From NCBI GenBank assembly GCA_051362555.1, contig CM120649.1, forward strand, positions 1,798,001 to 1,862,000: DNA of 64,000 nucleotides. The letters run 5' to 3'. How positions within the stretch are numbered: position 1 is the first letter of the stretch; each line of letters begins with the position of its first letter. Under the pieces are notes generated by a model. The model saw only the letters and a program-made list of their open reading frames with translations, searched no databases and was not told where the DNA came from. Made by a program: the position numbers and the translations under genes. This document shows positions 2,648 to 52,100 of the stretch, one piece after another. Source of the stretch: Lingula anatina. Taxonomy: Eukaryota; Animalia; Brachiopoda.

Positions 2648-5600
2648 ATGATGGGATTGTCCTGTCCGAGCCTTGTTCAGGCCTTGATGGCGTTCGTCTT
2701 TCTCAGTAAAACTCAGCTGAGTCAAACTTGTAAGTGTATAGAAACCAACTCAACATCCAAGTTCATGTGCCGTAGCATGTTTGCAATTCTGAGATCCGAT
2801 GTAAATTTTTGTTTCAGCATTTTGGTCTCAACATTGCTTGTTTGCAATGATTATATGCCATGTTTTTATGGATCTTTTCAAGTCTACTCGTTCCCACCTT
2901 TCTGCGGAACGCAATCCAGGCTGCGGTATACTATATGAACCTCTCATAGTTAGTATTCACAATATTCAGCACTACTTTTACCATATGATCAGGTCTTTAA
3001 TTCAATCTCAATATGCCAGGTGCTTTATCGATCATGCAGCAGCCACTATTATAATAGTCTACGGTATGACCAGGCCAGGGGGATCAAACTACATGACTTT
3101 TTGCACCAGAATGGAGCACGCCGTGCGGACAACTTATATATCATTTAGGCATGCTCCAGGTGTACAAGCCATAATCGTGTGAAAACGATAACCTATGCAT
3201 GATCGCTATATGCAAATTGATTGAGTAAAAAAATAAATTAAACTATATGTGTGAAATTATAAAACATGCCTGGTATTTATAATGCCTTGCTACATCTATT
3301 TTCAGACAATTGCGAGGATGACAGTTGCTATAATGGTGGGTTTTGCATAGATAATCCTGACGCTCCGTCTGGCTTCCAGTGCATTTGCTTCTCTTCCTCT
3401 TTCGGAGAGAGATGCGAATTTAGTAAGCAATACATTTGTTACACTTACTGTCGTCCTTTGTGGACAACATGAAATAGTTATGTACAGCAAAATGTAAGAA
3501 AGCATGTTTATTTTTGCAACAATTGATACCATACCATATGCTTCATTTAATACAATTTATCTATTAGCAGCGTGTCTTCTTCTGTTTGTCAGACATTTTA
3601 TTCATCTAGTGAGTTTTAATTTTTACTGCAAAATGAACAGTATGTCATTTCGTTTGATGGCACGGAGTGGTCCATTGTGAACACAGCATTCACAACATCA
3701 TCAACATCTTATTCTGAAGAGAAAGAAAAAAGTTGAACAAAAATACGCAAAAAAGTACCAGGTTGATATTCTGTGCAAAATAAATTCCATAGATATTGGT
3801 TGTCCTGCCTTATTAAATGCTTAAATTGTAAGAATTGAAATATCTCAACTGAAAGAGCGCGCAAAGCATGTATAAGCCTAGCAACATCCTCATTTCAGGT
3901 CCTTGCCTCATGGGTAACTGCAAGAATGGCGCAACGTGTGCAGTTAATGCTACAAATTTTCTATCGTTGTGCATTTGTCCCGAGGGTTATTACGGAAGAG
4001 AGTGCCAAATAGGTAAGCCGCTCCTTTCTAATACTGCATACATTGTGTATCTCGGTATTGACAGATAACAAGTAATAGCTAAATTACAAAACAGATTTAC
4101 TAGATTGACGCCAGAAGATAATAACAATTCCAATTAAAGGTATCATCTTTAGACTGATATTAAGTGATAATATGACATTAGATATCTCTTTATAAACTAT
4201 AATACCATATTTAAACGATTAGGTGGAACTCATGAAAACAGGTCCTGTGGCTTTGGATATCTGGGCCCGGTTTCAATAAGGATGGATAGCGCTAGCCTTT
4301 GGATAAAATGTCTGCAATGTGCATCCTATGGATAGCGCTATCCAGAGAATAATGCGTTTTTATCAACATTGGATAGCGTTATAAGTGCTTATCCAAATGA
4401 TAAAGATGTCCCCTCAAAGTAGGTGCAGTTAAATCATCAAAAAAAAAAAAAAAATGACGCAGTAAACCCTAGTTGTTTTTGCTATTGATACTTTGAATGA
4501 TACTGAGTCCATTGATAATATATCATAATATATCAAATTGACTGATTTAGTCTAGTGAGATTTTTGAAAAAATGCTCTGCATAAGAGGCAAGGGGCATTT
4601 TGGGGTAAAAGTTGGGAACCAGGCTTATTAGCGTAATTTTGGAATGCTGATTCCAATTAACCCGGTTCCCAAGCGAAATTTTGCGTTTTTAACGGTCTAA
4701 TTTGCAAAAAAAAAAAAAAAAAAAAAATAGCCGCCAGATTTCCTATTTTCTGCAATATCTCTGGAACTAGACAGTCAAATATGACAAATGAAGTGTCTTT
4801 AACTATATTTTCAGGGTCGAGGAACATTATTAAGATGTTTCTGTTAAAATTAGATTTACGCAATTTTCCTAAATATGCAAATTAGGATCGCCATTACTGA
4901 AAAACCGTTTTACTTCTGTATTTCTGTAACTAGGCAAGCAAACATGACAAATGAAGTGTGTACACTTATGTTCTCAGGGTCAGGGAATGTGATAAATCAG
5001 ATGTCTTGTCTGATGGGTAGCACTGACTTTGTGAATCGTGTCCGAGTAGCACCTTTTATTGCTTCTTCCCTGTATCTGTCAAACACTAGTCAATCTGCTG
5101 GTAGTTAGAACCTGCCTTCAGAACTGCTTTTATGTTCGTGTCGGCCGAACTACCAAAGGTCACTGCATTGTCAGGCTTTCCCAGTGAAATTGCCAGTTCT
5201 TGCCAATCAATTATAAGGCAAGGTGAGCAGAGGCGGATCCAGGATTATTTGAAGGGGGGGGGGGGGGTCCGCAGATGCAAAGCCTTCCCCTCCCAATTGG
5301 CAACGGGTTAGGGGCCTGTTGAAGGACCACGAACAATTTTGGTACATAAGAGGGCGAACGGTGCCATTTGATTATGGTTTACAACTATGATTCAGCTAGT
5401 CAAAATTATAATTTCAAGTGGGGGACAAGAATTCGAAGGGGGGGGGGGGTCAGAGCCGCTTGGTTAGGAGTCATTCAGTTTAATTTCATCAGGGTAGAAT
5501 ACGTCTTCTGTTAACCTTTCTGTTACAGATTTGGTCTCAACGAAATCGTTTAGAAGCTTGAGAAACTGCTCAGACTTGCAATTAACACAGAAATGTTTTC

Positions 5601-11880: not shown

Positions 11881-14535
11881 AAATTAGATCGTTGAAAACG
11901 CAAAATTTCGCTTGGAAACCGGGTTAATTGGAATCAGCATCCCAAAATTATGCTAATAAGCCTGGGCCCGGTTTCATCAAGGCTGAATAGTCTATCCTAT
12001 GGATAACACTATCCAAGGTATAAATCTCTTATCCTCTGTATAGTTATCCTCTGTATAAAATTGTGTTTCACAAAGGCTGGATAAACAGCATGATAGTAAT
12101 CCAGTGCATCCAATACCATATTTGGAAAAACACATTCCCATAATGCAGTTGGTTGCTATAAACATTATAATAGCTATGATAGTTGCTAACAAAAAAGTGA
12201 TCTATACCATATTTTGAAAATAAATTACCCATAATAAACAATATTATCAGTATATTATAAGATGGCACATTCATTAAAATAATGGGGAAAATATCTAGCC
12301 TACAGGATACTTTAGTGTCAGAGTCACAAACACATCACATTGCATTAGTTGTGCCTCATGCAATGTTTACAATTTGCAGTTGAAGGGCAAAGTCGTGACT
12401 TTTTAACAAAATGGCTGACTTGGCACGTGTATTATAATTTTAATTTTTCGTCGTTTCAAAAGGTATGTTTTCAGTAAAATAAAATTTATACTGAACAAAA
12501 ATATAAACGCACGAAATAATATGTAGATGACCAATACACAGACACTCTGTATAGTCTAGACACTGGTAGCACTAGGAACCACCCACATGCACCGACCACA
12601 CCCGATATGTCGCCCATTAAACACCTGTTGAATGTTCTGGGTCAACGTTTTAGCCATCATGTTCCAGCTCTCGAGAATGTTCGCCAACTGCGAGTAGCAC
12701 TCCGAGAGGAATGGGATAATGTCCCTCAGGCCAATATTGGCAACTTAATGATGTCCGTGCGCCGCTGGTGTACTGCTCTGCGCAAAGTTTATGGTGTCTG
12801 TGGACTCAGGATGTTAACCCCCATGGTGTATTTGATGTCCTAACTCTTGGGCTATGCATTTAAACTTCCCCTAATGCTTTCAAAGTGTTGTCTATTTGTC
12901 GAGAAAAATATGCTGTTATTTTTGGACATATACTATAGTTCCATATATGAAAATAAATCTACATATTATTTCGTGCGTTTATATTTTTGTTCAGTATAAA
13001 TTTTATTTTACTGAAAACATACCTTTTGAAACGACGAAAAATTATAATTATAATACACGTGCCAAGTCAGCCATTTTGTTAGAACGTATTTGACGACCTT
13101 GTCCTTCCACTGCACATTGTAAACATTGTAAACTAATCCAATGTAGTCTGTTTTTACACTGACAGTTTAAAACTCTCCTGAAGATACTATTATTATTATT
13201 CCTATTATTTAACTGAACGTGTCATCTTGAAATATATATTTTTATGGGAAGTTTATTATCCAAACGTGGTATAGATTACTTTTTTTAGCAACTATCATGA
13301 CTTTTCCAATGTTTATAGCAACTTATTACATCATGGGAATGCTTTTTCCAAATTTCTTATCCACTGGCTTACTATCATGCTTTTTAATGAAACCTTTGTG
13401 AAATATAAATTTATACAGCTGATAACTGTCTAGAGGATAACAGAATAATACCCTTGGAAGAGATTTATACGATGGGTAATGTTATCCATAGGGTAGTGCT
13501 ATCCAGTGTTGATCAAACCAGGCCCGGGTGATTAGGTGTAACATATGAAAACACGTCATAAAATAACGTCCATTAATAGGGTCTAAAATTTCCAAGTAAT
13601 CAGTTGCAGGCGAGTGCCAAGGTACATTTATTATATTTGATTTCAGCAAAATGTGGGGAAAACGCCCAATGCGCTGAAAAGCAGTCCAATGTTCCATTGC
13701 CTGGGAACAATGCCAACTGCAATTCATTTTTTAACCAAATTTGTGTTTGCAATGAGGGTTACAGTGGGGACGGATTTAACTGCACTAGTAAGTATTATAG
13801 AACATTTGGAAAATTGAATAGTTCTCTTTTTTGATTTTATTTTTTTTTTATTTTTAAGGTTTCTATTGTAAAGCACGTCACAGTTTTGGCTACTTACTGA
13901 GACAGAACAACAGCATTATTTTTTATAGAAAAATAATCAAACACATCTTTTGTTATACTACCATGTTAATTTTTGTTTTTGATGCAAATTCTTGGTCCTC
14001 ATTACTTCACTCATTAATAGTTAGGTGGCACCGGAAATTTACACTAAAGGCTGTACCAAGGCCCATATAAATTGGTGGTTGAAATAATAAGTGATATAAA
14101 TATAAATAATAACTTCAGCAATTTAACGTCAGATAATGTCTATAATAAGGGGATCCAATCACATATTTGGGTAAAGGGCAGTATGTATTACATTAAGATA
14201 TGTACTAATATTTCGACGTTGATGAAAGCCTGCATGTTCATTCGTATTTATTATTTTGCGTTGTTAAACATTTGATACACATGGTAATATGTGGAAGTAT
14301 TCAAAATATTGAAAGTTCTGAGGGGCTTTTTAAAGCCATTATTTCCACATAATTGCCATCAATTTCATATCTTCGTAATAATCATCCTTCGTAATAATCA
14401 TCATTTTAGTAAAAATAAAAACACTGAAGAAATTTGTTTGTATATTACTGAATGCACCAAAATGTGCTCTAACATGAAATCGGTGTCAAGGTGTCAATAA
14501 AACATACTTCTGTTCTTACAGGATGGGTGGAATAA
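2648..14535 (+). CDS. Copy 1: secreted 3-module EGF-like protein SP-A-B-C, 155 aa predicted (exons 2648-2729, 3306-3422, 3899-4012, 13647-13787, 14522-14535)
   Basis: Signal-like exon MMGLSCPSLVQALMAFVFLSKTQLSQT then T|GTAAGT. A: NCEDDSCYNGGFCIDNPDAPSGFQCICFSSSFGERCEF. B: PCLMGNCKNGATCAVNATNFLSLCICPEGYYGRECQI. C: KCGENAQCAEKQSNVPLPGNNANCNSFFNQICVCNEGYSGDGFNCT. Stop exon RWVE*. All are flanked by polypyrimidine-CAG and GTAAG; module exons are 117/114/141 nt (phase 1-1). Exon 1 appears to lie upstream of the window. Confidence 0.8.
5757..7257 (+). mobile_element. Decayed Tc1-like transposon inside Y
   Basis: TA flanks; TIRs catattgacatttaatatgg / ccatttaaatgtcaagtccg. HTH remnant IARQLHVSQGAVSNVLQK..RPRPGRP and GRGSICVWAG motif, broken by stops and frameshifts. 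Confidence 0.8.
7871..11750. mobile_element. Long-TIR element Z (TAG...CTA termini, 3-bp TSD CCT; possibly an Academ-like non-autonomous element)
   Basis: CCT at 7868-7870 and 11751-11753; termini tagtcgagtagcca / tggcgactcaacta; arms about 7871-8530 and 11100-11750 are inverted copies. Removing it restores Y's right arm (cctcgaccctgaaaatatag). Superfamily is inference. Confidence 0.75.
9188..10377 (+). mobile_element. Decayed, internally deleted Tc1-like transposon inside Z
   Basis: Transposase remnants GCSHPTIRNL..GSVSDIPQPGR, TPDQDRY, TARHYVDQILQPH..QQD, PDMNPIEH; degenerate TIRs tacttacag.. / ..ctgtcagta next to TA. Confidence 0.7.
12489..12996 (+). mobile_element. Short Tc1 deletion derivative
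   Basis: TIRs tactgaacaaaaatataaacgcacgaaataat at both ends, TA flanks; C-terminal transposase remnant PDMSPIKHL..LREEWDNVPQANIGNLMMSVRRWC. Confidence 0.85.
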
Positions 14536-17560: not shown

Positions 17561-17666
17561 ATTGGATAATTTATCGTGTGACACGTTTTCCACGAGATAC
17601 ACTGTCGAATCGGTGCTAGCAGTATATGATAACCAGTATGTGACTTCAACGAGAAAAAAAAAGGAG
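17561..17666 (+). promoter_or_regulatory. Promoter and non-coding exon 1 of copy 2
   Basis: ATTGG (reverse CCAAT) at 17561, TATA-like gtatatgataa at about 17622, donor GAG|GTAAGT at 17666/17667; homologous to the other copies but with a small deletion. Confidence 0.5.
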
Positions 17667-18687
17667 GTAAGTTTTGTGTCAACTGTGAAATATTGTGATC
17701 GGTGCAATTCTGCAACTTTATGGTGGTCTCCTGCACACACTGATTGTTGGTAACTAAACTGTGAATATCTCTCATTAGTTCTGGCGGAGGGTACTGCTTT
17801 TAATCAAATGTTTGTTGTTCATGTTTGGCCAGGAATCCAATGAACCTAAATACCACCAAAGAGTGTTTCATACGGTAGTTGATTGCCTCGATTCAACAAC
17901 TACCATTTGAATTTTAAGAGAGCAATGATAGTGAGAAAATGTATTTTCCATTTGTTGAATCTATTTCGAAGACTCACTCAAATTTAGTTCAAGCTTGGTC
18001 AGGAATCCAATGAACATTTAAATACCAAAGACTGATTAATAAAGTTTATTGTTGCCTGATATCACACTTTTAACAACCGCCTTTAGAATTTTAAGAGATG
18101 GATAGTGAAGGTGTTAGAAAGTAGGCACTCTCCATTTTTTAAAACTAGTTCGAAGCTTCAACCAAATATAGAGCAAATTTTGTTTCAAGTGATTCAATCA
18201 TATATTTATCGCTACACACTATCAAGCAAATTGATTTGAAAGCCGTTGCCATTCTACAGGCTTGCTGATGCACGTCGGCCCTGCAGGTATGTTCTCTGGG
18301 ACAAATGGATTATATGCATTTCTGCTAAACGAAAAAGAGCGGGTATTGACAGAATCTGCAAATAAATGGCAAAGTTGGTTTTTATTAATATTCGGGTATT
18401 TTTTTTACAATATTCGGGTTTTTAAAAATAAAATTCTGTTAACAAAGTATCAAGAGTTAACAAGATGTTATCATAACCAACACCCAAACCTGCCCCATAT
18501 TAAATATATATTGCATTGTTTGCCTCGTAAGCTGCGATGTTTTCAAGAAAACAAACCCAATTTTAATTAAAAGTTTAAATATGCACATATATATGATGTT
18601 GAATTTTACCACTTTCTTCTGAATATCTTATTTCATTCCAGCATAGAAGTGCTATACAAGAGTGATGTGTCTAACACCAACCAATCA

Positions 18688-19452
18688 ATGATGGGATTGT
18701 TGTTCTGCCCGAGTCTTGTCCTGGTCTTGTTTGCGTGTGTCAGTCAAACTCAGCTGAGTCAAGCTGGTAAGTGTGAAGAGACCAGCTCGACATCCATGTA
18801 CATGTACAATAGCATGTTTTAATTTCTAAGATACGGTATCAGTTTTCGTTTCAGCTTTTTGTTCTCAGCATTTCTTGGTTGCAATAATTATATGCCTGGT
18901 TTTTGTGGATCTTTTCAATTCTAAATCATTCCCACCTTTCTGCGGAGAATGCAATCCAAGCTGCGGCTTATGCACCTTTCGTAGTTAGCATTCACAATAA
19001 CCAGCACTACCGTATGACCAGGTCTTTTCCTTACTTCGTTCTCAATTTGCTTAGTGCTAAGCGAGGGGACTCCAGGTACTATTATAATGGTCTTTGGTAT
19101 GACAAGGCTATGCACGGGGATCAAACTCATGACCATTTGCAACCAGAGCACTCTCTGTAGGTGGTCTTTTAAATCATGTAGACATGGTGTACAAGCCGTG
19201 CCGTAACATTGTTAACAGGATAAAATGTGCATGACATATCTATTAAAATTGTTTGAATTTCTAAAGTTTAAAGTATATGTGTGAAATGATAAAGCATGCC
19301 TAACATTTAAATTGGCTTGCAACATCTAGTTTCAGACGGATGCGACCGTGACAGTTGCTATAATAATGGGCACTGCGTAGATAATGCCGACGAACCGCTT
19401 GGCTTCAAGTGCTTTTGTCAACGTGGCTATTTCGGAAAGAGATGCGAATTAT
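18688..19452 (+). pseudogene. Copy 2: 3'-truncated copy, SP-A only (exons 18688-18766, 19336-19452)
   Basis: Intact MMGLLFCPSLVLVLFACVSQTQLSQA and A exon DGCDRDSCYNNGHCVDNADEPLGFKCFCQRGYFGKRCEL with good splice sites. The A-B intron joins 3'-flank sequence at about 19798, so B, C and the stop exon are missing. It may still be expressed (see findings). Confidence 0.7.
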
Positions 19453-23064: not shown

Positions 23065-23656
23065 CACCAAAACCAGTTTTATTTACAAACAACAATGCTT
23101 GTTGCTATGGTTACAGGAAAGCTCGATTTTTGGCCAGTGTTTTCAAAACCTTACTATTATTAGATTTCGAAACCTTATTAAAGACATTAAACAAGTAATT
23201 ATTTTTTAAAAAGCCCATTCAGAAAAAGCCATCAAAAAGCACTGGCATCTCATGGCAGAGTTTTAGTTTTATCTTTCCTGTCACCTTTACCAAATGATTC
23301 CAGCTTATATAAACTTCAAAGCTGAATACGATGTTATTGTAACCAGCACCCCACCCAGCAACCATGTTAAATTACATTGGAGACACTGTTAAATGATAAA
23401 TCACTGACACGCACAGGTAACTGCAACGATTTTGCCATGAGCGTTCTATCGCACATTGCAATGCTCCCGAAAAAGATAATATATTGCCGTGTGGCATTGT
23501 TTGCGTGCCTCGTAATCTGCAATGTTTTCAAGAAAGCAAGCCTGATTTAGTTTAAAGATTGTCATACCTGTATGATGATGCTGAAATCTGAAAATCTTAT
23601 GTTATTCCAGCGTAGAAGTGCTATAAAAGAGTACTGTATCTAACATCAACCAATCA

Positions 23657-26600
23657 ATGATGGGATTGTTGTTCCGCCCGAGCCTTGTTCTGGCCTTGAT
23701 GGCGTGCGTCTTCCTCAGTCAAACTCAGCTGAGTCAAACTGGTAAGTGTGTAGAGGCCAACTCGACATCCAAGTTAATGTACATTAGCATGTTTGCAATT
23801 CTGAGATCCGATATCAAATTTTGTTTCAGCATTTTGGTCTCAACATTATTTTCAATTCTTTTTTTTCATTCTTTTCAATTATATGCCTGTTTTTTATGGA
23901 TCTTTTTAATTCTAAGTCATTCCCACTTGTCTAGCTGCGGCATATGCAACTCTCGTAGTTAGCATTCACAATAACCAGCACTATCATATGACCAGGTCCT
24001 TTCCTTACTTCAACCTCAATATGCTGAGTGCTAAGTAAGCATGCAGCAGCTACTATATTAATGGTCTTTGGTATGGCCAGGCCATAAGGATCAAACTCAT
24101 GACTTCCTGCACCAGACTTGATCACTCACTGTGGATTCTTTATATATAATTTAGGCATGGTCCAGGGGTACAAGCCAGGGCGTAGTGAAAACGATATGAT
24201 ACGCATGATCTTCCTATTGAAATTGTATGAATTTCAAAAATTCAATTAAACTTTATATTGTAAACTGATAAAACGTGACTGACATTTTTAAATTGCCTTG
24301 CAACACCTATTTTCAGACGTATGCGAGGAGGACAGTTGCTATAATGGTGGGTATTGCAAAGAGAGTCCTGGCGATCCGTCTGGCTTCCGGTGCAATTGCT
24401 TTCGGTATTTAGGAAAGAGATGCGAATTTTGTAAGCAGTATCTTTGTTACACTTACTGTCGTCCTTTGTGGATAACAGGACATAGTTATGTACGGTAAAA
24501 TGTAAGAAAACATGTTTAATATCGCAACTATTGATACCAGCTGATATGCTTTATTTAATACATTTTATTATTCATCAGTTATTTATTTATTTATTTTTAG
24601 TTCTTGCTGCAGAATGAACAGTATGTCATTTTCGTTTGATGATGTGGGGTGGCCCATTGTTAACACACTATTCACAACATACACATCATCATCAACATCT
24701 TATTCCAAAGATAAAAGAAAAAGGCTGAAAAAAATACCAAAAAAGTGTCTGGTGGAAATTGTGTACAAAATGAATTCTATAGATATCAGTTGTAAACCTG
24801 CCTTAGTAAATGCTCAAATTATAAGAATTGAAATATCTCAGCTGAAAGAGCATGAGAAGCATTTTATAACCCTTCTATATCCTCATTTCAGCCCCGTGCT
24901 TCTTCAATTACTGCAGGAATGGCGCAACGTGTGCAGTTCATAGTACAACTTTAGATTCGCTGTGCATTTGTCCCGAGGGTTATTACGGAGCAACGTGCGG
25001 ATTAGGTAAGCACTACCTATCCAATACTGCATACTGTACATTATGTATCTCAGTATTGAAATAAAACAGCTAATAACTATCGAGTTGTGAAGCATGCAGC
25101 AAAAGAACTTACAAAGCAGATTTGCTAGCGCAAAAAATTGATGTCAGGAAATGATAACAGGTGCCAGTAAAAGTAACACCTTTAGACTGATATTAAGTCA
25201 AATGGCAATATATCTCTCTATATAAACTACACTACCATATTCAAACGATTAGGTGGAACACATTAAAACAAGTCCTTTGGCTATGGATATCTGTTTGTTA
25301 ATTATAATTCAACTAACATATTCTGGACCCGATTTTATCAAGGATGGATAGCGTTATCCTATGGATAAGATGTCTGGTACATGTATGCTCTGGATAGCGC
25401 TATGAATAGGATAACGAGTTTTATCAACATTGGATAGCGTTATCAGAACAGGTGTTTGCCATTAGTCTATTGATATTCTAACATTATTTATCAAATGGAC
25501 ACATTGTTATGAAAATGATCCGTGCAATCTCCACGAGAGACAAATTATCTTTTATTTTACTAAAAACGTTCCTTCTAAAACGACGAAAAACATCTGCATT
25601 GCTACTGATAGAATGTGCCAAACGTGCCAAGGCAGCCATTTTGTTTTAGCGACTTTGTTCTTCCACTGCAAATTATAAATACGAGGCACATCTAATCCAA
25701 TGGGGTCTGTTTTGAAAGTGTCAGTTTTAGAATATCGTGTAGATATTACTCCCATTATTTTAATGAATGTACCATCTTGAAATATATATTTTTTGTGGGT
25801 AATTTATTTTCCAGATATGGTATCACTTTTTAGCAACAATAATGACTTTTACCATGTTTATAGCAACCAGTTGCATTATGGGAATACTTTTCCAAATTTG
25901 GTATTGGGTAAATTTCCACAGGATTACTATAATGCAAAAGAGATTTTTTCCATGGGTATTGTTATCCATAGGATAGTGCAATCCAGTGTTGATGAAACCG
26001 GGCCCAGGTGATTAAGTGGAACTTATGAAAACATAAAATAACGGCCATTAAGGTGGTCTAATTTTTTCAAGTATTCAGTAGCAGGCAAGTGCCAACGTAC
26101 ATTTATTTATTTATTTTGTTTTGTTTTCAGCAAAATGTGGGGAAAACGCCCACTGCGCTAACAAGCTGCATAACCGTCCATTGCCTGAGAACAATGGCAA
26201 GTGCAATCCAACATATAACCAACATTGTGTTTGCAACGAGGGTTACAGTGGGGACGGGTTCAACTGCATTGGTAGGTCTTACGCCTCTTTCAGAACAGTG
26301 GACAGTCCTTGGGTCAAATATGGCCAATTCACTTGAATACTTCGACCTAATCTATTTAGTGTCTTTTAGTGGATTAGACGGTCCTACCCCAAACTGTATT
26401 CAGAATGAGGTAAAAAAAAACAGACATGGCCGAATTAAAGAGTTTAAGCAAAAGATAACATACGGCACTCTAGCCAGATGTAATATAGAACATGTCCTTT
26501 GGCTGTACTATAATGCAACAAGCATGTTCAGGTGATTAGGTGGAACTTGAGAAAACTCGCCATAAAACAATGCCAATCAAGGTGGTTTAAAAATCTTCGG

Positions 26601-27458
26601 GAATTCAGTCGCAGGCGAGTGCCAACGAACATATTTTTTTTTTAATTTGTTTTCAGTACAATGCGGGAAAAACGCCCACTGTGCTAACAAGCTGCATAAT
26701 GGTCCATTGTCTGAGAACAATGGCAAGTGCGATCCAGTAGATAGCCAACATTGTGTTTGCAACGAGGGTTACAGTGGGGACGGATTTAACTGCACTAGTA
26801 AGTATTATAGAATATTTGGGTTACTGAATAGTTCTGTTTTTTTTTTTTCTAAGCTTTCTATTGTAAGACAGGACAAAGTTTGGGATACTTACGGAGACAG
26901 AACAACGGCATTTTCTTTATAGAAAATAATGAAACACGTGTTTTGTTACATGATAATGTTAATTTCTGTTTTTGACGCAATTTGCCTGTCATCATTACTT
27001 CACTCATTGATAGCTAGGCGGCACCGAAAATTAACACTAAAGACCGTTGCAAGGACCATATAAATTGGTGGTTGAAATAAAAAATAATATTTATATAAAT
27101 GATATCTTTTGTAATTAAACGTCAGATAATGTCTCTAATAAGGGGATCTAATCACACATTTGGGCAAGGGGCAGTATGTGTTACATTAAGATATGTACTA
27201 ATATATACGACGTTATTGGAAATCTGCATGTTCATACGTATTTATTATTTTGCGTTGTTAAGCATTTGATATGCATGACAATATCTTAAAGTATTTAAAA
27301 CATTGAAAGTTCCGAGGGGCTTTAAAATTTTAGTAAAAATGAAAACACTGAAGAATTTTGTTTGTATATTACTGAACGCACCAACATGTGCTCTAATGAA
27401 AAACAGGGTCAAGGTGTTCATAATATAAATTTCTTTTATTTCAGAATCGACGAAATAA
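23657..27458 (+). CDS. Copy 3: secreted protein SP-A-B-C-C, 202 aa predicted (exons 23657-23741, 24317-24430, 24892-25005, 26131-26271, 26657-26797, 27445-27458)
   Basis: MMGLLFRPSLVLALMACVFLSQTQLSQT; A DVCEEDSCYNGGYCKESPGDPSGFRCNCFRYLGKRCEF; B PCFFNYCRNGATCAVHSTTLDSLCICPEGYYGATCGL; two 141-nt C exons; stop exon KSTK*. Canonical AG/GT throughout, no internal stops. Confidence 0.85.
25327..26004. mobile_element. Element X, uninterrupted copy in the B-C intron of copy 3
   Basis: TIRs ctggacccgattttatcaaggatggatagc / tatccataggatagtgcaatccagtgttgatgaaaccgggcccag; same intron site as in copy 1. Confidence 0.7.
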
Positions 27459-33289: not shown

Positions 33290-33303
33290 CACACACACAC
33301 ACG

Positions 33304-33359: not shown

Positions 33360-33362
<3 letters not shown>

Positions 33363-33672: not shown

Positions 33673-33703
<31 letters not shown>

Positions 33704-34562: not shown

Positions 34563-35677
34563 GTAAGTTTTATGTTAACTGAGAAATATTTTGATCGGTG
34601 CAATTCCCATGCACACACACGGAATCCAACGGTCCTAAATCGTACTTCAATGATGTCATTATACATTTATCGCTACAGACTATCAAGCAAATAGATTTGA
34701 CTTTCTAATGGCGTGCTAATGAACGCTCGTCGATCCTGCAGGTATCTTCTCTGAGACAAATGGATTATACGCATTTCTGCTAAACGAAAAATGGCGGACA
34801 TTTACAGAACCTGCGATTGACTTGCAAAGTTGGTTTTTAACATTATTCGGATTTTTAAAAAACCTTAAAAGATGAGCACGATCGGGATTTGATGGGTTCT
34901 CATATTAGTAGTGGATTTATTATTTTTTTCCTGTAGCAGACGCAGGTCCACAGCACCAAAACCGCCTTTATTTCCTGTCACTGATGCTTGTTGCTATGGG
35001 CACAAGCAAAACCTGACTTTTGGCCATTTTTTTTAAAGCGGGAGAGGTGATTCCGAAAACTGGTAGATTTTGAAGCCTTATTTCTGAAATTTGAAACCAT
35101 GTACATAATTACAGACCAATTCTTAGAGAATTTAATCCCAGAAGTGGTGTTTTGCAAAACTTCAGATTCCTCATACTATAATCCATAATAATATTTGGTT
35201 CTTAATAACAATAACAACAAATCCTTTATCGTTTTAAGTGGCCAAGTTTAATTTTTCTTTTTTTGATAAGATGGTATTCTATATACAAAATATTATTCGC
35301 TTGAACATTTCCAGAAAAATAGGTTTCTGAAAAGCCCTGCAATCCCCTGGCAGACATAGACTTCTATCTTTTCTGTCACTGTTATCGACTGAATCCATCT
35401 TTTATTAGCTGCCATGTTGAATGAGTTGTTCCCCTAGCCAGCACACAAACCTGCTACCATGGTACTTTGGAGAGACTGTAAAAATGATGAATCACGCACA
35501 CGCACAGGCAACTGCGAAAGGGTTGACTCACCACAGAAAGTAAGCCCAATTTTGTTTAAAGATTGTCAAACATGTATGACGATGTTGGAATTTCACCATT
35601 TTGTTCTTCTGAATATCTTATTTTATTCCAGAATAGGAGTGCTATAAAAGAGTACTGTATCTAACATCAACCAACCA

Positions 35678-37734
35678 ATGATGGGATTGTTGTTCTGTCC
35701 GAGCCTTGCCCTGGCCTTGATGGCGTGCGTCTTTCTCAGTCAGCCTCAGCTGAGTCAAACTTGTAAGTGTATAGATACCTGCTTGACATCCATGTACATG
35801 TACAGTAGCATGTTTGCAGTTCATTATCAATTTTCGCCTCAGCATTTTGGTCTCAACATTGCCAGACTCAACTGAGTGAAAAATGTAACGGACCATTTCC
35901 AGAGATATTTGGATCAATCTATCTCCCTGGGGAGTCTCACTAAATTGCTATCAAACTAACCGGCTTAAACGCCTGTCACGCCTAGTAAAACTGTTAGGAG
36001 TAATTATCTAGCTGATTCGGTAGGCGTGACAGTCATTGAAGCCTCTTGAGCTAATAGCAATTAAGCGTGAACACCCAGGAAGTTAGGTCGATCCAGGGGC
36101 CCGTTTCACGAAGCAGTCATTAGTTAAAATAACTAAACACTGAACTATCTCGCTAACGAGGAAACTTAGCGATTTTCGAGGGGTGTTTCACGAAGCAGTC
36201 GTTAACTCATCGCTAAGTTCAGTCGTAAAGTTCGGTCGTTAGTACTCTCGTTACTCACCGTAGTCTCGAAACTTGCGTAAAAGTGTCACGAAAGCACTAA
36301 CTTTCCATTTTTTGGCTGGAAATGCATAAGAACGTCTGCTTTGAGGTCATCGTAAAGGATCTCTACCACCTTTTTGCCGCTCTTTTTGTTACAGCTAGGG
36401 GCAACCTCTCTTAAATTACATCATCATGTGTATATTCTGATAGATTCTGCCTATCATGAAAATGTCGCAGTCTATGTTGCCATCTGGCGGTACAGATAGC
36501 AAAATAGGCAGCTGCCATATTGTATACAAAGGCAAACGGCAGACAATGTGAACTAAGCAACCTTTTTTATTTCACTCATTATGCAAGGTAAATACGAGAC
36601 AATAATGAGCGAGAGATCTTGAGTGAGAGATCTAGCGATAGCTTCGTGAAACGGCACTCGTAACTAGCGAGGGGCTAAATACCTACCGCTAACTAACTAC
36701 TGCTTCGTGAAATACAGCTAGGCCCCAGATGGATCGATCTAATTCTGCGGGAACCCAGTCTTAGACATGACGTACAAGCTGTAACAGTGTGAAAATGATA
36801 AAATATGCATGGCCTATCTATTCAGATTGTTTGATGGATACAACATTGGTCAAAAAGGTTGTCCCACCTCCATTTCCATTTACTCTTCTTTACAAATTAT
36901 CACCTCACAGCAATAGAAATAGAAATAGTGCTTTTTATTACAAATACCGTGCCTAACATGATTAATGGTTAAAAATACAAAATAGTGGTGAGAATATACA
37001 CATTTTATACCATTTTGTAAAATTTGTAAGACTTACCCCCCTTAAACGAGCACACCCTAATGCTAATTGTGTGTGAATATGGTGACATTTGATGGCGTAT
37101 TTTCAATTTAATAGACATTTCTTTACATCTGTAGAAGTCACATATAGGCTTAACAGTGGATTTGAGGGGGTACGTCTTATAAATTTTACAAAATAGTATA
37201 AAATGTGTATATTCTCACCACTTTTTTGTATTTTTAATCATTAATCATGTTAGGCACGGTATCTGTAATAAAAAGCACTATTTCTAACAAATTACGGCTG
37301 TAAGGTGATCATCTGTAAATAAAAGTACATGGAAATGAGGGTGGGACAACCTTTTTTACCAATGTTGTATGTGTGAAATGAAAAAAAAAAATGCTTAACA
37401 TATCAATTGCCTTGCAACATCTATTTTCAGACGGATGTAAACCTGACAGTTGTTATCATAATGGCACTTGCGAAGTTACTACCGACTATCCGTCGGGCTT
37501 CCAGTGCTTTTGTCAACATGACTATTTCGGAGAGAGATGCGAATTGAGTAAGCAACGTCTTTGTGACACATAGGCTACTATCGTCCTTTGTGGATAACAG
37601 AAAATAGTTATACACAGTAAGATGTTAGAAAGCATGTTTACTATTACAACAATTGATACCGGCAGATGGATGCTTCATTTAATACAATGTATTCATTAGC
37701 AATGAGTCTTCTTCTATATGTTAGAGTTTTTGTT

Positions 37735-37770
<36 letters not shown>

Positions 37771-40700
37771 TATTTTTAGCTTCATTTATTTATTTATGTA
37801 TTTATTCGTTTTTTTATTTTTAGTTTTTTTTTTCTGCAAAATGAACAGTATGTCATATTCGTTTGATGACGTGAGTTCGTCCAGTGTTCACAACATCATC
37901 AACATCTTTTTCTGAAGAGAAAGAAAAAAAGCCTTAGCAAAAGTACGCAAAACACTGCCAGGTGGAAATTCTGTGCAAAATGAGTTCCACAGATATTAGT
38001 TGCCCTGCCTTATTACTGTATTTGAATTGAAATATCTCAACTGAAAGAGCATACATGCTAAGCATTTTATAAGCCTTGCAATATCCCCATTTCAGCTTCA
38101 TGCCATCTGTTTCATAAATGCCTGAATGGCTCAGTGTGTGTATTTAATACTACAAACTCGCAATATTTGTGCATTTGCACCAGGGGTCCTTTCGCAACTG
38201 ATTGCTATGGTAAGCCGTGCCTTTCTTAGATCGCATTCACAACGAGTTGAGCCAGGCTTTACAAATCCTGGAGACTAAATATGGCGGACGTACATGAAAG
38301 AAAAACCGCCTAATCTTTTAATAGTCTCTCCGCCTCTCACACGCCTCCCCACGTGTCGTCCCAATGGAGCCGAGGTTTAATGACTGTCCCCCGCAGGGAC
38401 GACGTGTGGGGAGGCGTGTGAGAGGCGGAGAGACTATTAAAAGATTAGGCGGTTTTTCTTTCATGTACGACCGCCATATTTAGTCCCCAGGATATGTAAA
38501 GCCTGGCTCAACTCGTTGTGAATGCGATCTTATACTACATACATTGTGTGTCTCAGTATTGAAAGATAAAAGATATAAGAAAGATCTAAGTTGTAAAGAT
38601 TTACAAAGCAAATTTAGCAGCTCAAAAATTGATGACAGAAGATATGTAGCAAGTACCACTAATAATAAATATAGACTGATATCACATCATATGTCAGGAT
38701 CTCTCTTTATAAACTATAATACCATGCTCAAACGATTAGGTGGAACTTATGAAAGCACGTCTTAAAATAACGCCCATTAAAGTGGTTAAAAAAATCAAGC
38801 ATTTTTTCGCGGGAGAGTGCCAACTTACATTTTTCTTTGTTTTCAGAAATGTGTGGGGAAAACTCCCACTGCATGTACGGGATTTATTCAGTGTTTAAAC
38901 TATTTGATTACAACTGCGATTTACATTATGGCTATCGTTGTGTTTGCGACGAGGGTTACAGATATGATGGAGGTTTTTGCCAAGGTAAGTTTTAAATAGG
39001 CCGAATTCAGCACAGTCCCCTAATGTATTCAGTGTATAAGGCGGTCCTACTCGAAATTGCGCTGGTGTTCAGAATGAAAAAAAAAAGACAGACATGGATG
39101 AGTTGAGAACAATGACCACTGCGATTCAGGATCTTACCAATATTGTGTTTGCGACGAGGGTTACCTTAGGGACGGATTGAACTGCACCAATAAGCCTTAT
39201 AGTATATTTGGATGATTGAACAATTCCGGAATTTGAAATTGGACATGACGAAAGTACAGGAGTCTTTTCCATAGGCATTTTTTTGGACTAACATTTTAGA
39301 CCCCAGAGTTTTAGCAGATTTTAAAATTTTAAACTATATGTGTGATACGATAAAGCATGCCTAATAGTTAAATTGGTTTGCAACATCTGTTTTCAGAGAT
39401 ATGTCACACTGATAGTTGCTTTCAAAATGGGTTTTGCGAAGTTAATCATGAAGAACCGCTTGGTTTCAAGTGCGTTTGTGACCCTGGTTTTTTCGGAGAG
39501 AGATGCGCATTGAGTAAGCAATGTCCTCGTGACATTTACTATCGACTTTTCTGGACAACAGGAAATAGTTATACACAGCCAAATGTTAGAAAGCATATTT
39601 ACTTTTGCAACAATTGATACCAGCAGATATGCTTAATTAAATAGTAGTGTGTCTACCCAAAGAGTTATTTATGTAAGAGTTATTTATTTATTTGTTTTTA
39701 GGTTTTTACTTTGAAACGAACAGTACTCCATTATCGCTTGATGGCGGGGGGGGGGGGGGGGGGGGGTCCAGTGTTAATTCATACAACACAGTATTGATAA
39801 CATTAAGTTTAAGTGCTTTTTTGATCTGAAGAGTAAGAAAAAGGGCTGAGAAATGTACACAAAAAATGGCAGGTGTAAATTCTGTACGAAATGAATTCTG
39901 TAGATATTAGTTACGCTGCCTTAGTAAATGCTTAAATTATAAGAATTGAAATAACTTTTAATGCTTAGCATTTTATAGCACTTGCAGTGTCCTCATTTCA
40001 GGTCTGTGCCTTTGGAATAAATGCTTGAATGATGCAACGTGTGTAGTTAATACTATAAGTGCGCGATCGTGGTGCATTTGTGACGAGGGTTATTTCGGAA
40101 CATTGTGCGAAAAAGGTAAGCCGTGCCCTTCTAATACTGCACACATTGTGTATCTCAGTATTAACATATATCTATGTTGTGAAGCATGCAGCAAAGGGAA
40201 TTACAAAGCAAATTTACCAGCGCAAAAATTGCTGCCAGAAAATATGTAGCAAGTACAGTAGTAGTACCTTCTATAGACTGATTTCAAGTCATATGGCTCT
40301 AGATCTCTGTTTATAAACTATAATACTATATTCAAACGATTTTGTTACGAAAACGTGTCCTATGGCTGTAGATCTCTGTTTATGATAATACAACTAACAT
40401 ATTCAGATGATTAGGTGGAACTTATGAAAACACGTCATAATATAACGCCCATTTAGGTGGTTTAAAATATTCAGGTATTCAGTCGCGGGCGAGTGGCAAC
40501 GTACATTTTTTTAATTTGTTTTCAGCACAATGTGGGGAAAACGCACACTGCGCTGACAAGCTGCGCAATCGGCCATTGCCCGATAAAAATGACAACTGCA
40601 ATTCATTATATGACCAACATTGTGTTTGCAACGAGGGTTACAGCGGGGATGGATTCAACTGCACCGGTAGGTCTTAGGTCGCATTCGGAACAGTGGACTA

Positions 40701-40815
40701 ACTAGTCCTCGGGTCAAATATGGCCTACTCACTTGTATACTTCTCCCTAATATATTCAGTCTATATAAGTGGATTCGACGGTCCAACCCCAAAGTGTATT
40801 CAGCAAAGTGTATAG

Positions 40816-40850
<35 letters not shown>

Positions 40851-41684
40851 ATGGGCGAGTTTAACAAGTTTAAGGTTTATACAGGTCTGTTCATAAAATT
40901 TCATTATTCTGCGTTTTTCAATATTTGATGGAAATATGTGTACTCTGAAAGGTCATTATGTCTATCATAATTATTATCAATTTCATTTTATCATTTTTAT
41001 TAAAAATAATTTTATAAAAAAATAAACACTTTATAATTTTGCAAAAATGCTCATCAGCTAGGTAGTTTGATAATAAATAAAAATTAGCAAACACAAGCCG
41101 AGAAAAATGTCTTACCGTTAGGTTACTTTTGTGGGACTATATGTGAGATTAACTGTCGTGACTGCATTTTTTTTTTTTTTTTACATTGGTGAGACAGATA
41201 GACAGTTTAAGACCAGGGCTAGTGAACAAAGAAAACCAGTGACTGCATCGGACGTACATAGAAAATACCAGCTCTGCCACTTCTAAACATGTTATAAACA
41301 CCGGTCCATCACTGGAATCCAACTAGGTTCCCTGAATCCAAGTCATCTGAGATCCTACGTAAGAAACGAGAGGTTATCATCATCAGCTGTCACAAGCCAT
41401 CCATGGATAGGGACGGTGGGTCGATCTACCTGACATTTATAAGAGTGTCCTGGCCCCTATACCACCTATTGGACACTGAGTATCAACGTCTACTCACGTC
41501 ATTCTGATAAAGGCATACGTCCAGGTTTGCCGAAAGCTTCCGGTATGAAAGTTTCTCGGCTTGTGTTTGACTGAAAAAAATTGTTTGTGCATTACTGAAT
41601 GCACCAAATGCCCTCTAATATAAAAACGGGGTAAAGGTGTTCAGAAAACATGTTTTTTTTTTTATTTCAGAATCGGTGGAATAA
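35678..41684 (+). CDS. Copy 4: secreted protein SP-A-B-C-A-B-C, 279 aa predicted (exons 35678-35762, 37431-37547, 38096-38209, 38847-38984, 39397-39513, 40002-40115, 40526-40666, 41671-41684)
   Basis: Signal exon MMGLLFCPSLALALMACVFLSQPQLSQT; six open 6-Cys exons of 117/114/138/117/114/141 nt with CAG/GT boundaries; stop exon ESVE*. Confidence 0.85.
35890..36755. mobile_element. MITE W copy interrupted by a Harbinger-like element
   Basis: Homologous to 20428-20647; split at gatccag (36090-36096). Confidence 0.6.
36097..36725. mobile_element. Harbinger-like non-autonomous element, TSD CAG
   Basis: CAG at 36094-36096 and 36726-36728; termini gggcccgtttcacgaagcagt / actgcttcgtgaaatacagctaggccc; repeated tttcacgaagc subterminal motifs. 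Confidence 0.7.
36841..37367. mobile_element. Tc1/mariner-type MITE with about 200-bp TIRs
   Basis: TA flanks; caacattggtcaaaaaggttgtcccacc / ggtgggacaaccttttttaccaatgttg; partial copy at 55261-55573. Confidence 0.85.
38229..38529. mobile_element. Near-perfect hairpin MITE, TSD TTA (PIF/Harbinger-like)
   Basis: About 135-bp arms gatcgcattcacaacgagttgagccagg.. around a roughly 33-bp spacer; TTA at 38226-38228 and 38530-38532; begins 20 nt into the intron after exon B1. Confidence 0.85.
39105..39189 (+). pseudogene. Dead 3' half of a C exon
   Basis: ENNDHCDSGSYQYCVCDEGYLRDGLNCT; acceptor and 5' half deleted, donor GTAAG changed to ATAAG. Confidence 0.8.
41088..41570 (+). mobile_element. Penelope-like remnant in the last intron of copy 4
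   Basis: Short inverted ends caaacacaagccgagaaa / tttctcggcttgtgtttg; degenerate hammerhead ctgataa-aggc..gcc-gaaagctt at 41504-41539; homologues at 52696-53223 and about 61400-62164. Confidence 0.55.
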
Positions 41685-45216: not shown

Positions 45217-45253
<37 letters not shown>

Positions 45254-48583: not shown

Positions 48584-49155
48584 AGGTTTTTAAGCATTAT
48601 TTTCGAAACCTGAAACCAAACAAAGGATTTTTGTGTGAACATATTTAGCAAACAAGAAGTGTATGATCGAGAAGCCCTACGACCTCATGACAGAGTTTCA
48701 ATTTCATTTTTTCAGTCACGGTTACTGAATGATTCCATCTTTCATAAGTTTCCGTCCTCAATAAGATGTTATCATAACCAGCACCCAAACCTGCTATCAT
48801 GTTAGTAAAAACGATGAATCAGGCGCACGCACAGACAGCTGCGACCGGGTTGACTCACCACAAATAAAAGCCTTGGAACAAGCGATGATATTGGCGTGAT
48901 CGTGCGGTTGCAAATCGCAATTCCTTCGAGAAAGATAATATATCGTCATATCGCATTGCTTGTGTACATGTACCCTGTACATAGTAAGTTGCGGTGTTTT
49001 CAAGAAAGTAAGCCCAATTGAGTTTAAAGATTGTCATACATGTATGCATAATCATGATTACGTTAAAATTTTGCCACTTTCTTTTTCTGAATAACGTATT
49101 TTATTCCAGCATAGAAATGCTAGAAAAGAGTACTTTATCGAACATCAACCAATCA

Positions 49156-52100
49156 ATGTCGGGATTGTTGTTCTGCCCGAGCCTTGTTCTGGCCCTGATG
49201 GCGTGCGTCTTTCTCAGTCAAACTAAGCCGAGTCAAACCGGTAAGTGTATAGAGACCAACTCGACATCCAAGTTCATGTACAATATCATGCTAAGCAAGC
49301 ATTCAGCAGCTACTATTATAATGGTCTTTGTTATGACAAGGCTTTGGGGATCAAACTCATGAGTTCCTGCACCAGAATGGAGCACTCTGTGTTGACACTT
49401 TATAAACCATTTAGGCATGGGCCAGGCACAATAGCCATGACAGTGTGAATACGAAAAACTGTGCATGGAATATCTAATCAAATTGTATGAATTTCAAAAA
49501 ATCTAACTATATGTGTGAAATTATAAAACATGCCTGCCTTTTATATTGCCTTGCGACATCTATTTTAAGACGAATGCAAGAATGACAGTTGCTATAATGG
49601 TGGGCTTTGCGTAGAAAATCCTGACGAGCCGTCTGGCTTCCAGTGCAAGTGCATCCCTTACTTTGTCGGAGAGAGATGCGAATTCAGTAAGCAATATCTT
49701 TGTTACAGTTACTGTCGTCCTTTGTGAACAACAGGGTATAGTTCTGTACAGTAAAATATTAGACAACATGTTAACTATTGCCACAGTTGACAGCATATTG
49801 GCAGCACATATGTTTTATTTAACACAGTTTATCCATTATCAGTGTGTCTTTTAAATATGTAAGAATTTTATTTATTTATTTATTTTAATTTTTTTACTGC
49901 AAAACCGTGTCATAGTGTGGGTGGTCCAGTGTTAACAAACTATTGACAACATTTAGTTTAAGTGTTTTTTTATTCTGAAGAGTGAGGGAAATAAACGCTG
50001 ATCAAAAGTGCACAAAAAGTGTCAGGTGGACATTTTGTACAAAATTAATTCCATAGATATTAGTTACCCTGCCTTAGTAAAATGCTCAAAATATACGAAT
50101 TGAAATATCTCAACTGAAAGAGCATGCGTATCATTTTTAAACCTTAATTACAATATCCTCATTTCAGATGATTGCGACAAGAATGGCTGCTGGAATGGCG
50201 GAACCTGTACAGCTTTTATTGTAAATTTCCAGCCGTGGTGTATTTGTCCCAAGGGTTATTTTGGAACATTGTGCCAAACAGGTAAGCCGTGTCTTTCTGA
50301 TACTGCACATACATGTATTGTGTATCTCAGTATTGAACTAGAAAAACACTCCGCAGACATCCGCCAAGGCAGCGATTTTTTATTATTATTGATTATTGAT
50401 TGATTATTGATCCGGATCACCACCAAATTAATCATCTCTTCATTGGCCCACTTCTGACAGTTCCTGAAAATTTCATCAAAAGTGATCCATAACTTTCTGA
50501 CTTATGTTGATGACAGACAAACAAAACAAACAGACAAACAGGGGTGAAAACATAACCCCCTTAGCGGAGGTAAAGATAACAACGATTAGCTCTAAGTTGT
50601 GAAGCATTCAGCAAAAGAAATTACACAATATATTTACTAGCGCAAAAATTGATGCCTGAAGATAGTAACCAGAACCAGTAATAGTATTCTCTATAGACTG
50701 ATATCAAGCCATATGGCTCTACATGTAGATCTCTTCTTAGGTGGACGTTATGAAAACACGTCATGAAAAAACGTCCATTAATACGGTTTAAATTTTTCTT
50801 TTGAGACGAGTGCCAACGTACATTATTTTTTTTTTTTCAGCCCAATGTGGGGAAAACGCACACTGCTATTTCAATCTGCTTTATCTTCCATTGCCCGAGA
50901 ATAAAAACAACTGCAATTCAGTACATCACCAATATTGTGTTTGTAATGACGGTTACAGCGGGGATGGATTTAACTGCACTGGTAAGTCTTACACCCCATT
51001 TCCATAGATTAGATCGACCTACTTTAGATCGACCTAACTCCCTGGGGATTCACGCTAAATAGCTGTCAACCGGGCGGACACGAAAGTTAATTACCTAGCT
51101 TGTAGTAGGCGGGACGGACATTTAAGTCGGATTATCTGAAAGTAATCTAGTGAGACTCCCCGCGGGGATAGATCGATCTAAAATCTATGGGAATAGAGCC
51201 TAAGGTCCTAGGTTGCATTCAGAACAGTGGACTCACTAGTCTGCCGGTCAAATGTGGTCGACACACTTGAATACTTCTCTCTAATCTATTCAGTATCTAT
51301 TAGTTTGATTAGAAGGTCGCGTTATATGACCCCTAGACTAGTTAATCCGCCCTTCTCATTGAACAGTTTTATTGGTATACCATAAGTTAGCTGAAACCAT
51401 AACGTGAAAAGAATTGAGAATCGACTCTCCCCCCCCCCCCCCCCACACACACACATGGACAGCCCAATCTACAATTTTACAAAAACCCTAAGGGCTCATG
51501 CACACCCCTAGTGATAGGTCATAGGTCTACCAAATCCCTAAAGTTTGAACTTTCTTACTCTAATGATCCAGGAAGAGAAAGCAGAAATTACGACGTAGTA
51601 AAAGAAAAAAATAGTATCAATCAACCCCCTGGGTCAGTCTAATCCCAATTAATACTAAAATTCCAATGGTATAATTTACAATGTAAAAGGAATTGAGAAT
51701 CAGAAGCGACGTCTTTTGTCTATAATAACAAATAATCAATTTTGTCACGTGCAACGTTGTTTTGTCACCGATTACTGTTCAACATCATGATAAGCCTGAT
51801 AAAAATCGCGAAATCTAACAAATGTCAGTCTAACCTTGACCGTAACACTTTAAGGCCATTGTGGCTAATTAAATCGACTTATCATAGTCAGCAATCAGAT
51901 TTTAGCAGACTAAACTTAGCCCATTGAGATATTTATTTATTTGTTTATTTATTTATTTTCCCCGCTCATTGGTGACAAAAGTCAAAAATATATTTTCCAG
52001 ACCATCATATTTTTTATGTTTTTGAGAGGATTTTTATTGTTTTTAATTGGCAAAATGGTAGATTGAAAAAAAAACATGCACTGTGTTATGATGATCAAAA

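What the first reader, a model, noticed from the sequence alone, without database searches (positions are those of the whole stretch)
3306..49686. Strong excess of amino-acid-changing substitutions between paralogous EGF exons
Counted by hand over full codons: A exon copy 1 vs copy 5 has 13 amino-acid-changing codons and 1 silent; B exon copy 1 vs copy 3 has 14 and 2. Cysteines, glycine turns, the signal exon and the flanking introns stay easily alignable. Established: a conserved signal and Cys frame with hypervariable loops is the pattern of conotoxins, defensins and gamete-recognition proteins. Inference: diversifying selection. Caveat: neutral change already yields about three replacements per silent change, so a formal test is required.
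Basis: partly seen in the sequence, partly recalled or inferred. Interest (0 to 1): 0.8.

Follow-up and report, generated by a model that had tools for sequence, protein, structure and literature searches.

The report
Positively selected brachiopod EGF protein array
In the lamp shell Lingula, a tandem row of small genes for predicted secreted proteins built of EGF modules changes amino acids about three times faster than its introns change bases, which marks an undescribed family under diversifying selection that likely serves to bind variable foreign targets.

Summary
The window holds six tandem gene units of Lingula anatina: signal exon, phase-1 EGF exons of three types (A, B, C), short tail, no membrane anchor. 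M8 beats M8a for A (p ≤ 6e-4) and B (p ≤ 2e-5), with ω 3.3–5. With introns as the yardstick, synonymous rates equal the intron rate and free amino-acid sites run 2.6–3.3 times faster (p ≤ 2e-6). The signal survives multi-hit and rate-variation models, other trees and recombination null simulations. A tree-free test supports B strongly and A only marginally. C is weak (mean ω < 1), and the signal exon shows no positive selection. Close relatives were found only in Lingula, misnamed jagged-, delta- or crumbs-like. None is in two shell proteomes, and ten literature searches found no description. Function is untested and no spliced RNA read was seen. Non-self binding is the likeliest role; gamete recognition is the main rival. 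The scan had not noted this family on other DNA.

The parts
2602..2729 (+). G1 signal-peptide exon (S; ATG at 2648/2651), phase-1 donor
3306..3422 (+). G1 EGF exon A (Cys spacing 4-5-11-1-8)
3899..4012 (+). G1 EGF exon B (4-5-10-1-8)
13647..13787 (+). G1 EGF-like exon C (5-15-7-1-10), after a 9.6-kb intron with nested repeat elements
14522..14535 (+). G1 terminal exon, coding part (short tail and stop); a second terminal-exon copy lies at 15431-15462
18642..19452 (+). G2, truncated unit: S exon 18642-18766 and A exon 19336-19452 only; no B, C or terminal exon
23611..27458 (+). G3: S 23611-23741, A 24317-24430, B 24892-25005, C 26131-26271, C 26657-26797, terminal exon from 27445
35632..41684 (+). 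G4: S 35632-35762, A 37431-37547, B 38096-38209, C 38847-38984, partial C about 39104-39202, A 39397-39513, B 40002-40115, C 40526-40666, terminal exon from 41671. RefSeq XP_013382190.1 models this gene as S-A-C-A-T.
49110..53348 (+).
54543..62280 (+). G6, decaying or rearranged: S 54543-54627, broken A 56025-56141 (stop codon, non-AG acceptor), C 58546-58680, C 58773-58913, B 59523-59636, C 59985-60119, frameshifted C 60243-60381, terminal exon from 62267
63894..64000 (+). orphan B exon with a stop codon, cut by the window end
17664..17672 (+). predicted donor of a non-coding first exon; like sites at 21821, 34560 and 43413
   Evidence: sequence only

Best explanation
This is a tandem array of a Lingula gene family for small, predicted secreted proteins made only of EGF modules, whose A and B modules are under diversifying selection, likely because they bind variable non-self targets such as microbes or parasites. 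Shown: exon anatomy, no membrane segment, gene conversion between copies, decay of some copies, and ω of 3-5 at 36-77% of A and B codons on a fixed cysteine frame. Inferred: phase-1 exon cassettes are duplicated and reshuffled by unequal crossing over; each new copy is selected for a new binding surface; copies that stop being useful decay (birth and death). I put the selection claim at about 0.9 and the defence or non-self-binding role at about 0.45.
For: Site models on 6 of 7 A, 6 of 7 B and 9 of 10 C exons under three codon-frequency settings: M8 vs M8a p = 1.5e-5 to 6.4e-4 (A), 3.1e-6 to 1.9e-5 (B), 1.8e-3 to 7.3e-3 (C); positive class ω 3.3-4.9. Joint intron-exon model: silent rate 0.74-0.93 times the intron rate (not different from 1), free sites 2.6-3.3 times, p ≤ 5.4e-8. 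On five matched units with 362 gap-free intron columns and gamma rate variation: 2.9 and 3.0 times, p = 1.5e-6 and 6e-7. B exon DNA is more divergent than the intron in 9 of 10 pairs, A in 7 of 10. Multi-hit plus rate-variation models: A p = 0.01, B p = 8.5e-4. Null simulations with four independently evolving segments: highest LRT 4.6 of 25 runs (A) and 7.2 of 27 (B), against 17.2 and 18.8 observed with the same tree pipeline. A class at ω near 0 covering 22-31% of sites shows purifying selection, so these are not drifting pseudogenes. Signal exon ω = 0.67 with no gain for M2a. A conversion tract joins B3899 and B59523 (Sawyer test, 0 of 1000 permutations). All 13 of 315 fetched proteins with the C-module cysteine pattern are Lingula records, and none of 13 family proteins checked has a late hydrophobic segment. 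None of 16 family accessions is among 54 shell proteins.
Against: No functional or tissue data. The tree-free bootstrap for A is marginal (P = 0.04 against introns and 0.07 against dS for non-cysteine codons; 0.11-0.17 for all codons). C has mean ω 0.66-0.81. Samples are small (6 sequences of 38 codons), the code is my own rather than PAML, and site calls are naive empirical Bayes. Some tested exons lie in truncated or decaying units (G2, G6). A kappa-B-like GGGNTTTCC motif recurs in an upstream repeat but is no better conserved than its neighbours, so it gives no support to an immune role.
Confidence: 0.45

Rival explanations
1. Gamete- or self/non-self-recognition proteins: secreted egg-coat or sperm-surface EGF modules diversify through sexual conflict or species recognition, as proposed for ascidian HrVC70.
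For: HrVC70 is made of EGF repeats that are polymorphic between Cys3 and Cys4 and carries O-fucose (PMC9265791, passages). Five of 6 intact B exons keep a C-x4-(S/T)-C site of the recalled O-fucosylation consensus. Allelic differences seen so far change amino acids: one F/Y difference from the RefSeq model of G4, and three single-base differences in G3 exons in run X1. Broadcast spawning in Lingula is recalled.
Against: No ZP domain or anchor. Many diverging paralogs with birth and death fit defence families better than a single recognition locus (established knowledge). The variant table was truncated and one of the three differences may come from a paralog.
Confidence: 0.22
2. Secreted mimics or antagonists of EGF- or Notch-type receptors of other organisms (chemical defence against predators, foulers or parasites), working like EGF-like venom peptides.
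For: Signal peptide plus a hypervariable cysteine frame. All A modules keep the G-x-R-C ending with the Arg before Cys6 that ErbB ligands conserve. EGF-like toxins exist in ant venom (PMC8851504, listing and start of abstract).
Against: Both ErbB-ligand criteria fail: no intron between Cys4 and Cys5 and no nearby membrane segment. The closest solved sequences are Notch repeats, which also show G-x-R-C. Lingula is a filter feeder with no venom organ (recalled).
Confidence: 0.13
3. Structural or adhesive secretion (pedicle glue, periostracum or shell matrix), like mussel EGF-repeat foot proteins, diversified for substrate binding.
For: The small tandem-EGF architecture resembles mussel Pvfp-5b (Foldseek E = 2.9e-3). 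One relative is auto-named adhesive plaque matrix protein 2.
Against: 0 of 16 accessions among 54 shell proteins. No small EGF-only protein in the 2015 shell proteome tables. Tyr 4.5-6.2% and Lys 3.4-4.0%, not the Tyr/Lys-rich make-up recalled for mussel glues.
Confidence: 0.1
4. No adaptive signal: relaxed constraint after duplication, exon-local hypermutation, or gene conversion that homogenises introns.
For: Several broken copies; conversion is detected; the tree-free test for A is marginal; mean ω for C is below 1.
Against: Silent sites match the intron rate, which excludes local hypermutation and intron-only homogenisation. Neutral models are rejected in every variant for B and for A. Recombination nulls never came near the observed statistics. 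Second codon positions in B (p = 0.40) exceed third positions (0.21) and introns (0.22).
Confidence: 0.08

Closest known systems
Lingula anatina RefSeq models XP_013382190.1, XP_013390330.1, XP_013418876.1, XP_013386451.1, XP_013385403.1 and others (auto-named jagged-, delta-, crumbs-, WIF1-like)
   Same: Same family: shared signal peptide and A/B/C modules. XP_013382190.1 is G4 of this window, with one amino-acid difference inside exons.
   Different: The names come from generic EGF similarity. The G4 model omits both B exons and the second C exon. No study of the family was found.
Notch, Delta and Jagged EGF repeats (PF00008)
   Same: A and B modules have Notch-type cysteine spacing; best sequence and fold matches are Notch EGF repeats.
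   Different: No DSL, no membrane segment, no intracellular part; 119-348 aa; amino acids change faster than neutral.
Conotoxins, defensins and other cysteine-framed secreted families under diversifying selection (recalled)
   Same: Conserved signal exon, fixed cysteines, hypervariable loops, exons more divergent than introns, tandem birth and death.
   Different: EGF scaffold, multi-module proteins made by exon shuffling; silent sites are not accelerated; no toxic or antimicrobial activity known.
Ascidian vitelline-coat sperm receptor HrVC70/HrVC120
   Same: Extracellular protein of EGF repeats that vary in sequence (PMC9265791, passages).
   Different: HrVC120 has 12 repeats and a ZP domain and varies between alleles; here 2-6 modules, no ZP, and variation between paralogs.
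Insect Nimrod/Eater EGF-repeat phagocytosis receptors
   Same: EGF-repeat proteins used in non-self binding (PMC2375007, passages).
   Different: NIM-type repeats and mostly membrane-bound (recalled); no homology beyond the EGF clan was shown.

Membership tests
EGF-like domain (PF00008 clan) | Six cysteines in EGF spacing; Pfam score above the cut-off | tested here: met
   2 of 2 A and 2 of 2 B exons scanned reach the PF00008 cut-off (one A copy exactly at 21.5 bits); the AlphaFold model of relative P0012 (pLDDT 82) matches Notch EGF repeats
EGF-like domain (PF00008 clan) | C module: canonical EGF spacing and fold | tested here: inconclusive
   Spacing 5-(13-15)-7-1-10; 2 of 2 C exons scanned stay below the EGF_3 cut-off; no solved sequence hit; best fold match NELL1 EGF, Z 3.2, rmsd 2.2, 31 aligned; Foldseek E ≥ 0.66
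Notch ligands (DSL family) | DSL domain and transmembrane segment | tested here: not met
   Gene units run signal exon, EGF exons, stop; no late hydrophobic segment in 13 of 13 family proteins
ErbB/EGFR ligands | Splice site between Cys4 and Cys5 of the EGF module (PMC1618406) | tested here: not met
   Each module is one whole phase-1 exon
ErbB/EGFR ligands | EGF module next to a transmembrane segment | tested here: not met
ErbB/EGFR ligands | Conserved Arg before Cys6 | tested here: met
   Invariant in 6 of 6 A exons; absent at that position in B and C
Lingula shell matrix proteins | Detected in the shell proteome | tested here: not met
   0 of 16 accessions among 54 proteins (PMC13425148 Data S1); no small EGF-only entry in PMC4595640 Tables 25-26
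Egg-coat EGF-ZP proteins (HrVC120 type) | C-terminal ZP domain | tested here: not met
   Terminal exons encode 4-10 residues
Egg-coat EGF-ZP proteins (HrVC120 type) | Gonad-specific expression | not testable with these tools
   Tissues of the RNA runs are not given
Secreted innate recognition or effector proteins | Binding to or killing of microbes; induction on challenge | not testable with these tools
   needs experiments
Gene families under diversifying selection | Site class with ω > 1 and dN above neutral reference divergence | tested here: met
   (B strong, A moderate, C weak)

The most novel reading that the evidence does not exclude
A combinatorial, EGF-based secreted recognition repertoire in a brachiopod. 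Three exon cassettes, one a Lingula-specific EGF variant that appears to have lost Cys1 and gained a cysteine in a long loop, are reshuffled between genes, converted, alternatively spliced and driven apart by selection. Together they would give dozens of soluble binders for immunity or allorecognition.
Probability: 0.2. Interest if true: 0.75.

Novelty: new member of a known kind. Interest (0 to 1): 0.5.

Why it matters
Brachiopod defence and gamete-recognition molecules are barely known. This family gives a concrete, statistically supported arms-race candidate in a so-called living fossil, and one that databases hide under Notch-pathway names. EGF modules are usually conserved signalling or matrix parts; here they act as a hypervariable scaffold, and the fast sites name the surfaces to test. 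The pattern itself (secreted cysteine frame under diversifying selection) is well known from other animals, which caps the surprise until a function is shown.

Tried and rejected
No whole genome is held for this window, so copy number rests on RefSeq records (12 scaffolds by length) and on 20 contigs of run X1 covering one signal-exon position. No RNA holder was listed for the G3 region; this is no evidence either way. Expression and splicing of G4 and G5 remain untested. The search for longer or fused forms returned only generic EGF-repeat proteins among the best 120 of 339, so a link to the EGF-TM-TIR receptors noted elsewhere in this genome was not found; this is weak evidence. ESM Atlas gave only generic EGF clusters at or below 0.90. 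Rfam: 0 matches. The kappa-B-like motif was rejected as support. The search of the 2026 shell-proteome supplement for three family motifs found 0 hits; its peptide sheet would hold them only if those exact peptides were detected. Exons left out of the codon tests: A56025, B63894, C60243 (broken) and the partial C near 39104. Wrong (random or star) trees raised the LRT rather than lowering it, which is why the recombination simulation was run. Fold searches with the C-module model gave no clear match; this does not show a new fold. Ten paper searches found no description of the family. The library lacks most subscription papers, including a 2018 survey of Lingula immune genes that I recall but did not see; bioRxiv supplements were not available.
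Full report
Observation. Self-comparison shows the window is a tandem array. Exon mapping gives six gene units on the + strand, each starting with a signal-peptide exon (S), followed by phase-1 cysteine-rich exons of three types and a terminal exon that codes 4-10 residues. The orders are G1 S-A-B-C-T, G2 S-A (truncated), G3 S-A-B-C-C-T, G4 S-A-B-C-(partial C)-A-B-C-T, G5 S-A-B-C-T and G6 S-(broken A)-C-C-B-C-(frameshifted C)-T, plus an orphan broken B at the window end. The hand counts are exact: 13 replacements and 1 silent change for A3306 vs A49570, and 14 and 2 for B3899 vs B24892. They are favourable pairs: first of 15 for A and third of 15 for B.

Identity. A and B are EGF domains by Pfam. 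A profile of nine C exons searched against 1.84 billion representatives gave 134 hits, mostly partial matches to generic EGF repeats. Of ten hits looked up, eight were Lingula anatina RefSeq models and two were unrelated metagenome proteins. XP_013382190.1 is G4 itself, with one F/Y difference inside exons, so the window is Lingula anatina. RefSeq names these proteins jagged-, delta-, crumbs-, WIF1- or adhesive-plaque-like. They have no late hydrophobic segment (13 of 13), and the window's gene units have no room for a DSL domain. The C-module cysteine pattern occurs in 13 of 315 fetched proteins, all from Lingula. Family records lie on 12 scaffolds by length, and 20 contigs of one DNA run cover a signal-exon position, so the family is larger than this array. 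Other brachiopods are poorly represented, so 'Lingula-specific' is provisional.

Selection tests. I wrote codon-model likelihood code (GY and MG forms) and used 6 A, 6 B and 9 C exons with open frames. M0 ω is 1.27-1.42 (A), 2.03-2.19 (B) and 0.66-0.81 (C). M2a vs M1a, M8 vs M7 and M8 vs M8a are all significant: M8 vs M8a p ≤ 6.4e-4 (A), ≤ 1.9e-5 (B) and ≤ 7.3e-3 (C). The positive class has ω 3.3-4.9 and covers 37-44% (A), 62-77% (B) and about 10% (C) of codons. The signal exon has ω 0.67 and no positive class.

Intron yardstick. In a joint model of flanking introns and exons on one tree, the silent rate is 0.93 (A) and 0.74-0.79 (B) times the intron rate, not different from 1. Free amino-acid sites run at 2.6 and 3.2-3.3 times (p ≤ 5.4e-8). 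With the whole A-B intron of five matched units and gamma rate variation on both parts, the values are 2.9 and 3.0 (p = 1.5e-6 and 6e-7). This excludes depressed dS, exon-local hypermutation and intron-only homogenisation.

Robustness. Adding double and triple substitutions and codon-level rate variation leaves A at p = 4e-4 to 0.02 and B at p ≤ 8.5e-4. Dropping single copies and the first codon leaves p ≤ 0.01 in 4 of 4 trials. Gene conversion is real (B3899/B59523 tract; Sawyer test 0 of 1000 permutations for B, p = 0.054 for A). I therefore simulated neutral-plus-conserved data on four independent trees per exon: the highest LRT was 4.6 in 25 runs (A) and 7.2 in 27 (B), against 17.2 and 18.8 observed. 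Against my reading: a tree-free block bootstrap supports B (P ≈ 0.005 over all codons) but A only marginally (P = 0.04-0.17), and C falls to p = 0.04 without C38847.

Where the change falls. In A the fast sites flank Cys1 and Cys3, sit between Cys4 and Cys5 and follow Cys5, while D-S, P-x-G-F and G-x-R are fixed. In B 18 of 38 columns score above 0.9 (naive Bayes, indicative only). AlphaFold of relative P0012 gives three folded modules (pLDDT 82) that match Notch EGF repeats. The C module model has strands at residues 6-10 and 30-34, carrying its second and fourth cysteines. With the C-G-x-N-A-x-C motif, this suggests an EGF that lost Cys1 and gained a cysteine in a long loop. That is inference; disulfides could not be read from the model, and fold matches are weak.

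Expression. Three RNA runs laid on the G3 region gave no spliced read; tissues are unknown and only part of each run was read. The RefSeq model of G4 skips three exons that look intact here, which may reflect alternative splicing, another haplotype or the gene predictor. Function therefore rests on the evolutionary signature.

Mechanism. Symmetric phase-1 exons let unequal crossing over add, drop and reorder modules without a frameshift (established knowledge). Selection then favours new surface residues on a fixed disulfide frame, and unused copies decay. Such a signature in a multi-copy secreted family most often reflects host-parasite or host-microbe conflict (established knowledge), so I commit to soluble non-self binders (0.45). 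The rivals are gamete or allorecognition (0.22), receptor-mimicking chemical defence (0.13), adhesive or matrix roles (0.10) and non-adaptive causes (0.08). A shell role is disfavoured: 0 of 16 accessions among 54 shell proteins (PMC13425148: passages and supplement part 1), and no small EGF-only entry in PMC4595640 (passages and supplement Tables 25-27). ErbB-ligand membership fails the criteria of PMC1618406 (passages). HrVC70 (PMC9265791), Nimrod (PMC2375007) and Biomphalaria MEGF-like receptor clusters (PMC13712769) were read as passages only; PMC8851504 was seen as a listing with the start of its abstract.

Verdict. Interest 0.5.

Noticed in passing
window 13647-13787 and the other C exons: The C module has an unusual cysteine spacing (5-13/15-7-1-10) that looks like an EGF_3-type domain lacking Cys1 with a new cysteine in a long loop; the pattern was found only in Lingula among 315 fetched proteins.
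   Followed up: partly
window 35632-41684 vs XP_013382190.1: The RefSeq model of G4 joins S-A-C-A-T and skips both B exons and the second C exon, all with open frames and normal splice sites: possible alternative splicing.
   Followed up: partly
window about 29000-32850: A long open stretch between G3 and G4 that reads like a LINE-type retrotransposon (endonuclease and reverse transcriptase motifs by eye), apparently near intact.
   Followed up: no
window about 6050-6900, 9400-10250, 12500-12900 and 57150-58400: Decayed Tc1/mariner-like transposase fragments (by eye) inside introns, some nested within inverted-repeat elements (4619-4815/11751-11965, 4813-5131/7553-7870, 7892-8527/11101-11715).
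   Followed up: no
window 16565-17040, 20646-21066, 33071-33993, 42564-42675, 54004-54144, 62882-63668: A repeat of about 120-180 bp upstream of the gene units with GGGNTTTCC and ATGCAAAT-like motifs; possible promoter or enhancer module. The motifs are no better conserved than their neighbours.
   Followed up: partly
window 54400-54627: In G6 the predicted non-coding first exon is fused directly to the signal exon; the first intron appears deleted.
   Followed up: no
window 24403, 24905, 26668 (run X1) and 37431-37547 (vs RefSeq): All four exon differences seen between individuals or assemblies change an amino acid; the table was truncated and one may be a paralog, so this is only a hint of selection on alleles.
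   Followed up: partly
window 38228-38530: A palindromic MITE-like insertion just after the donor of B38096.
   Followed up: no
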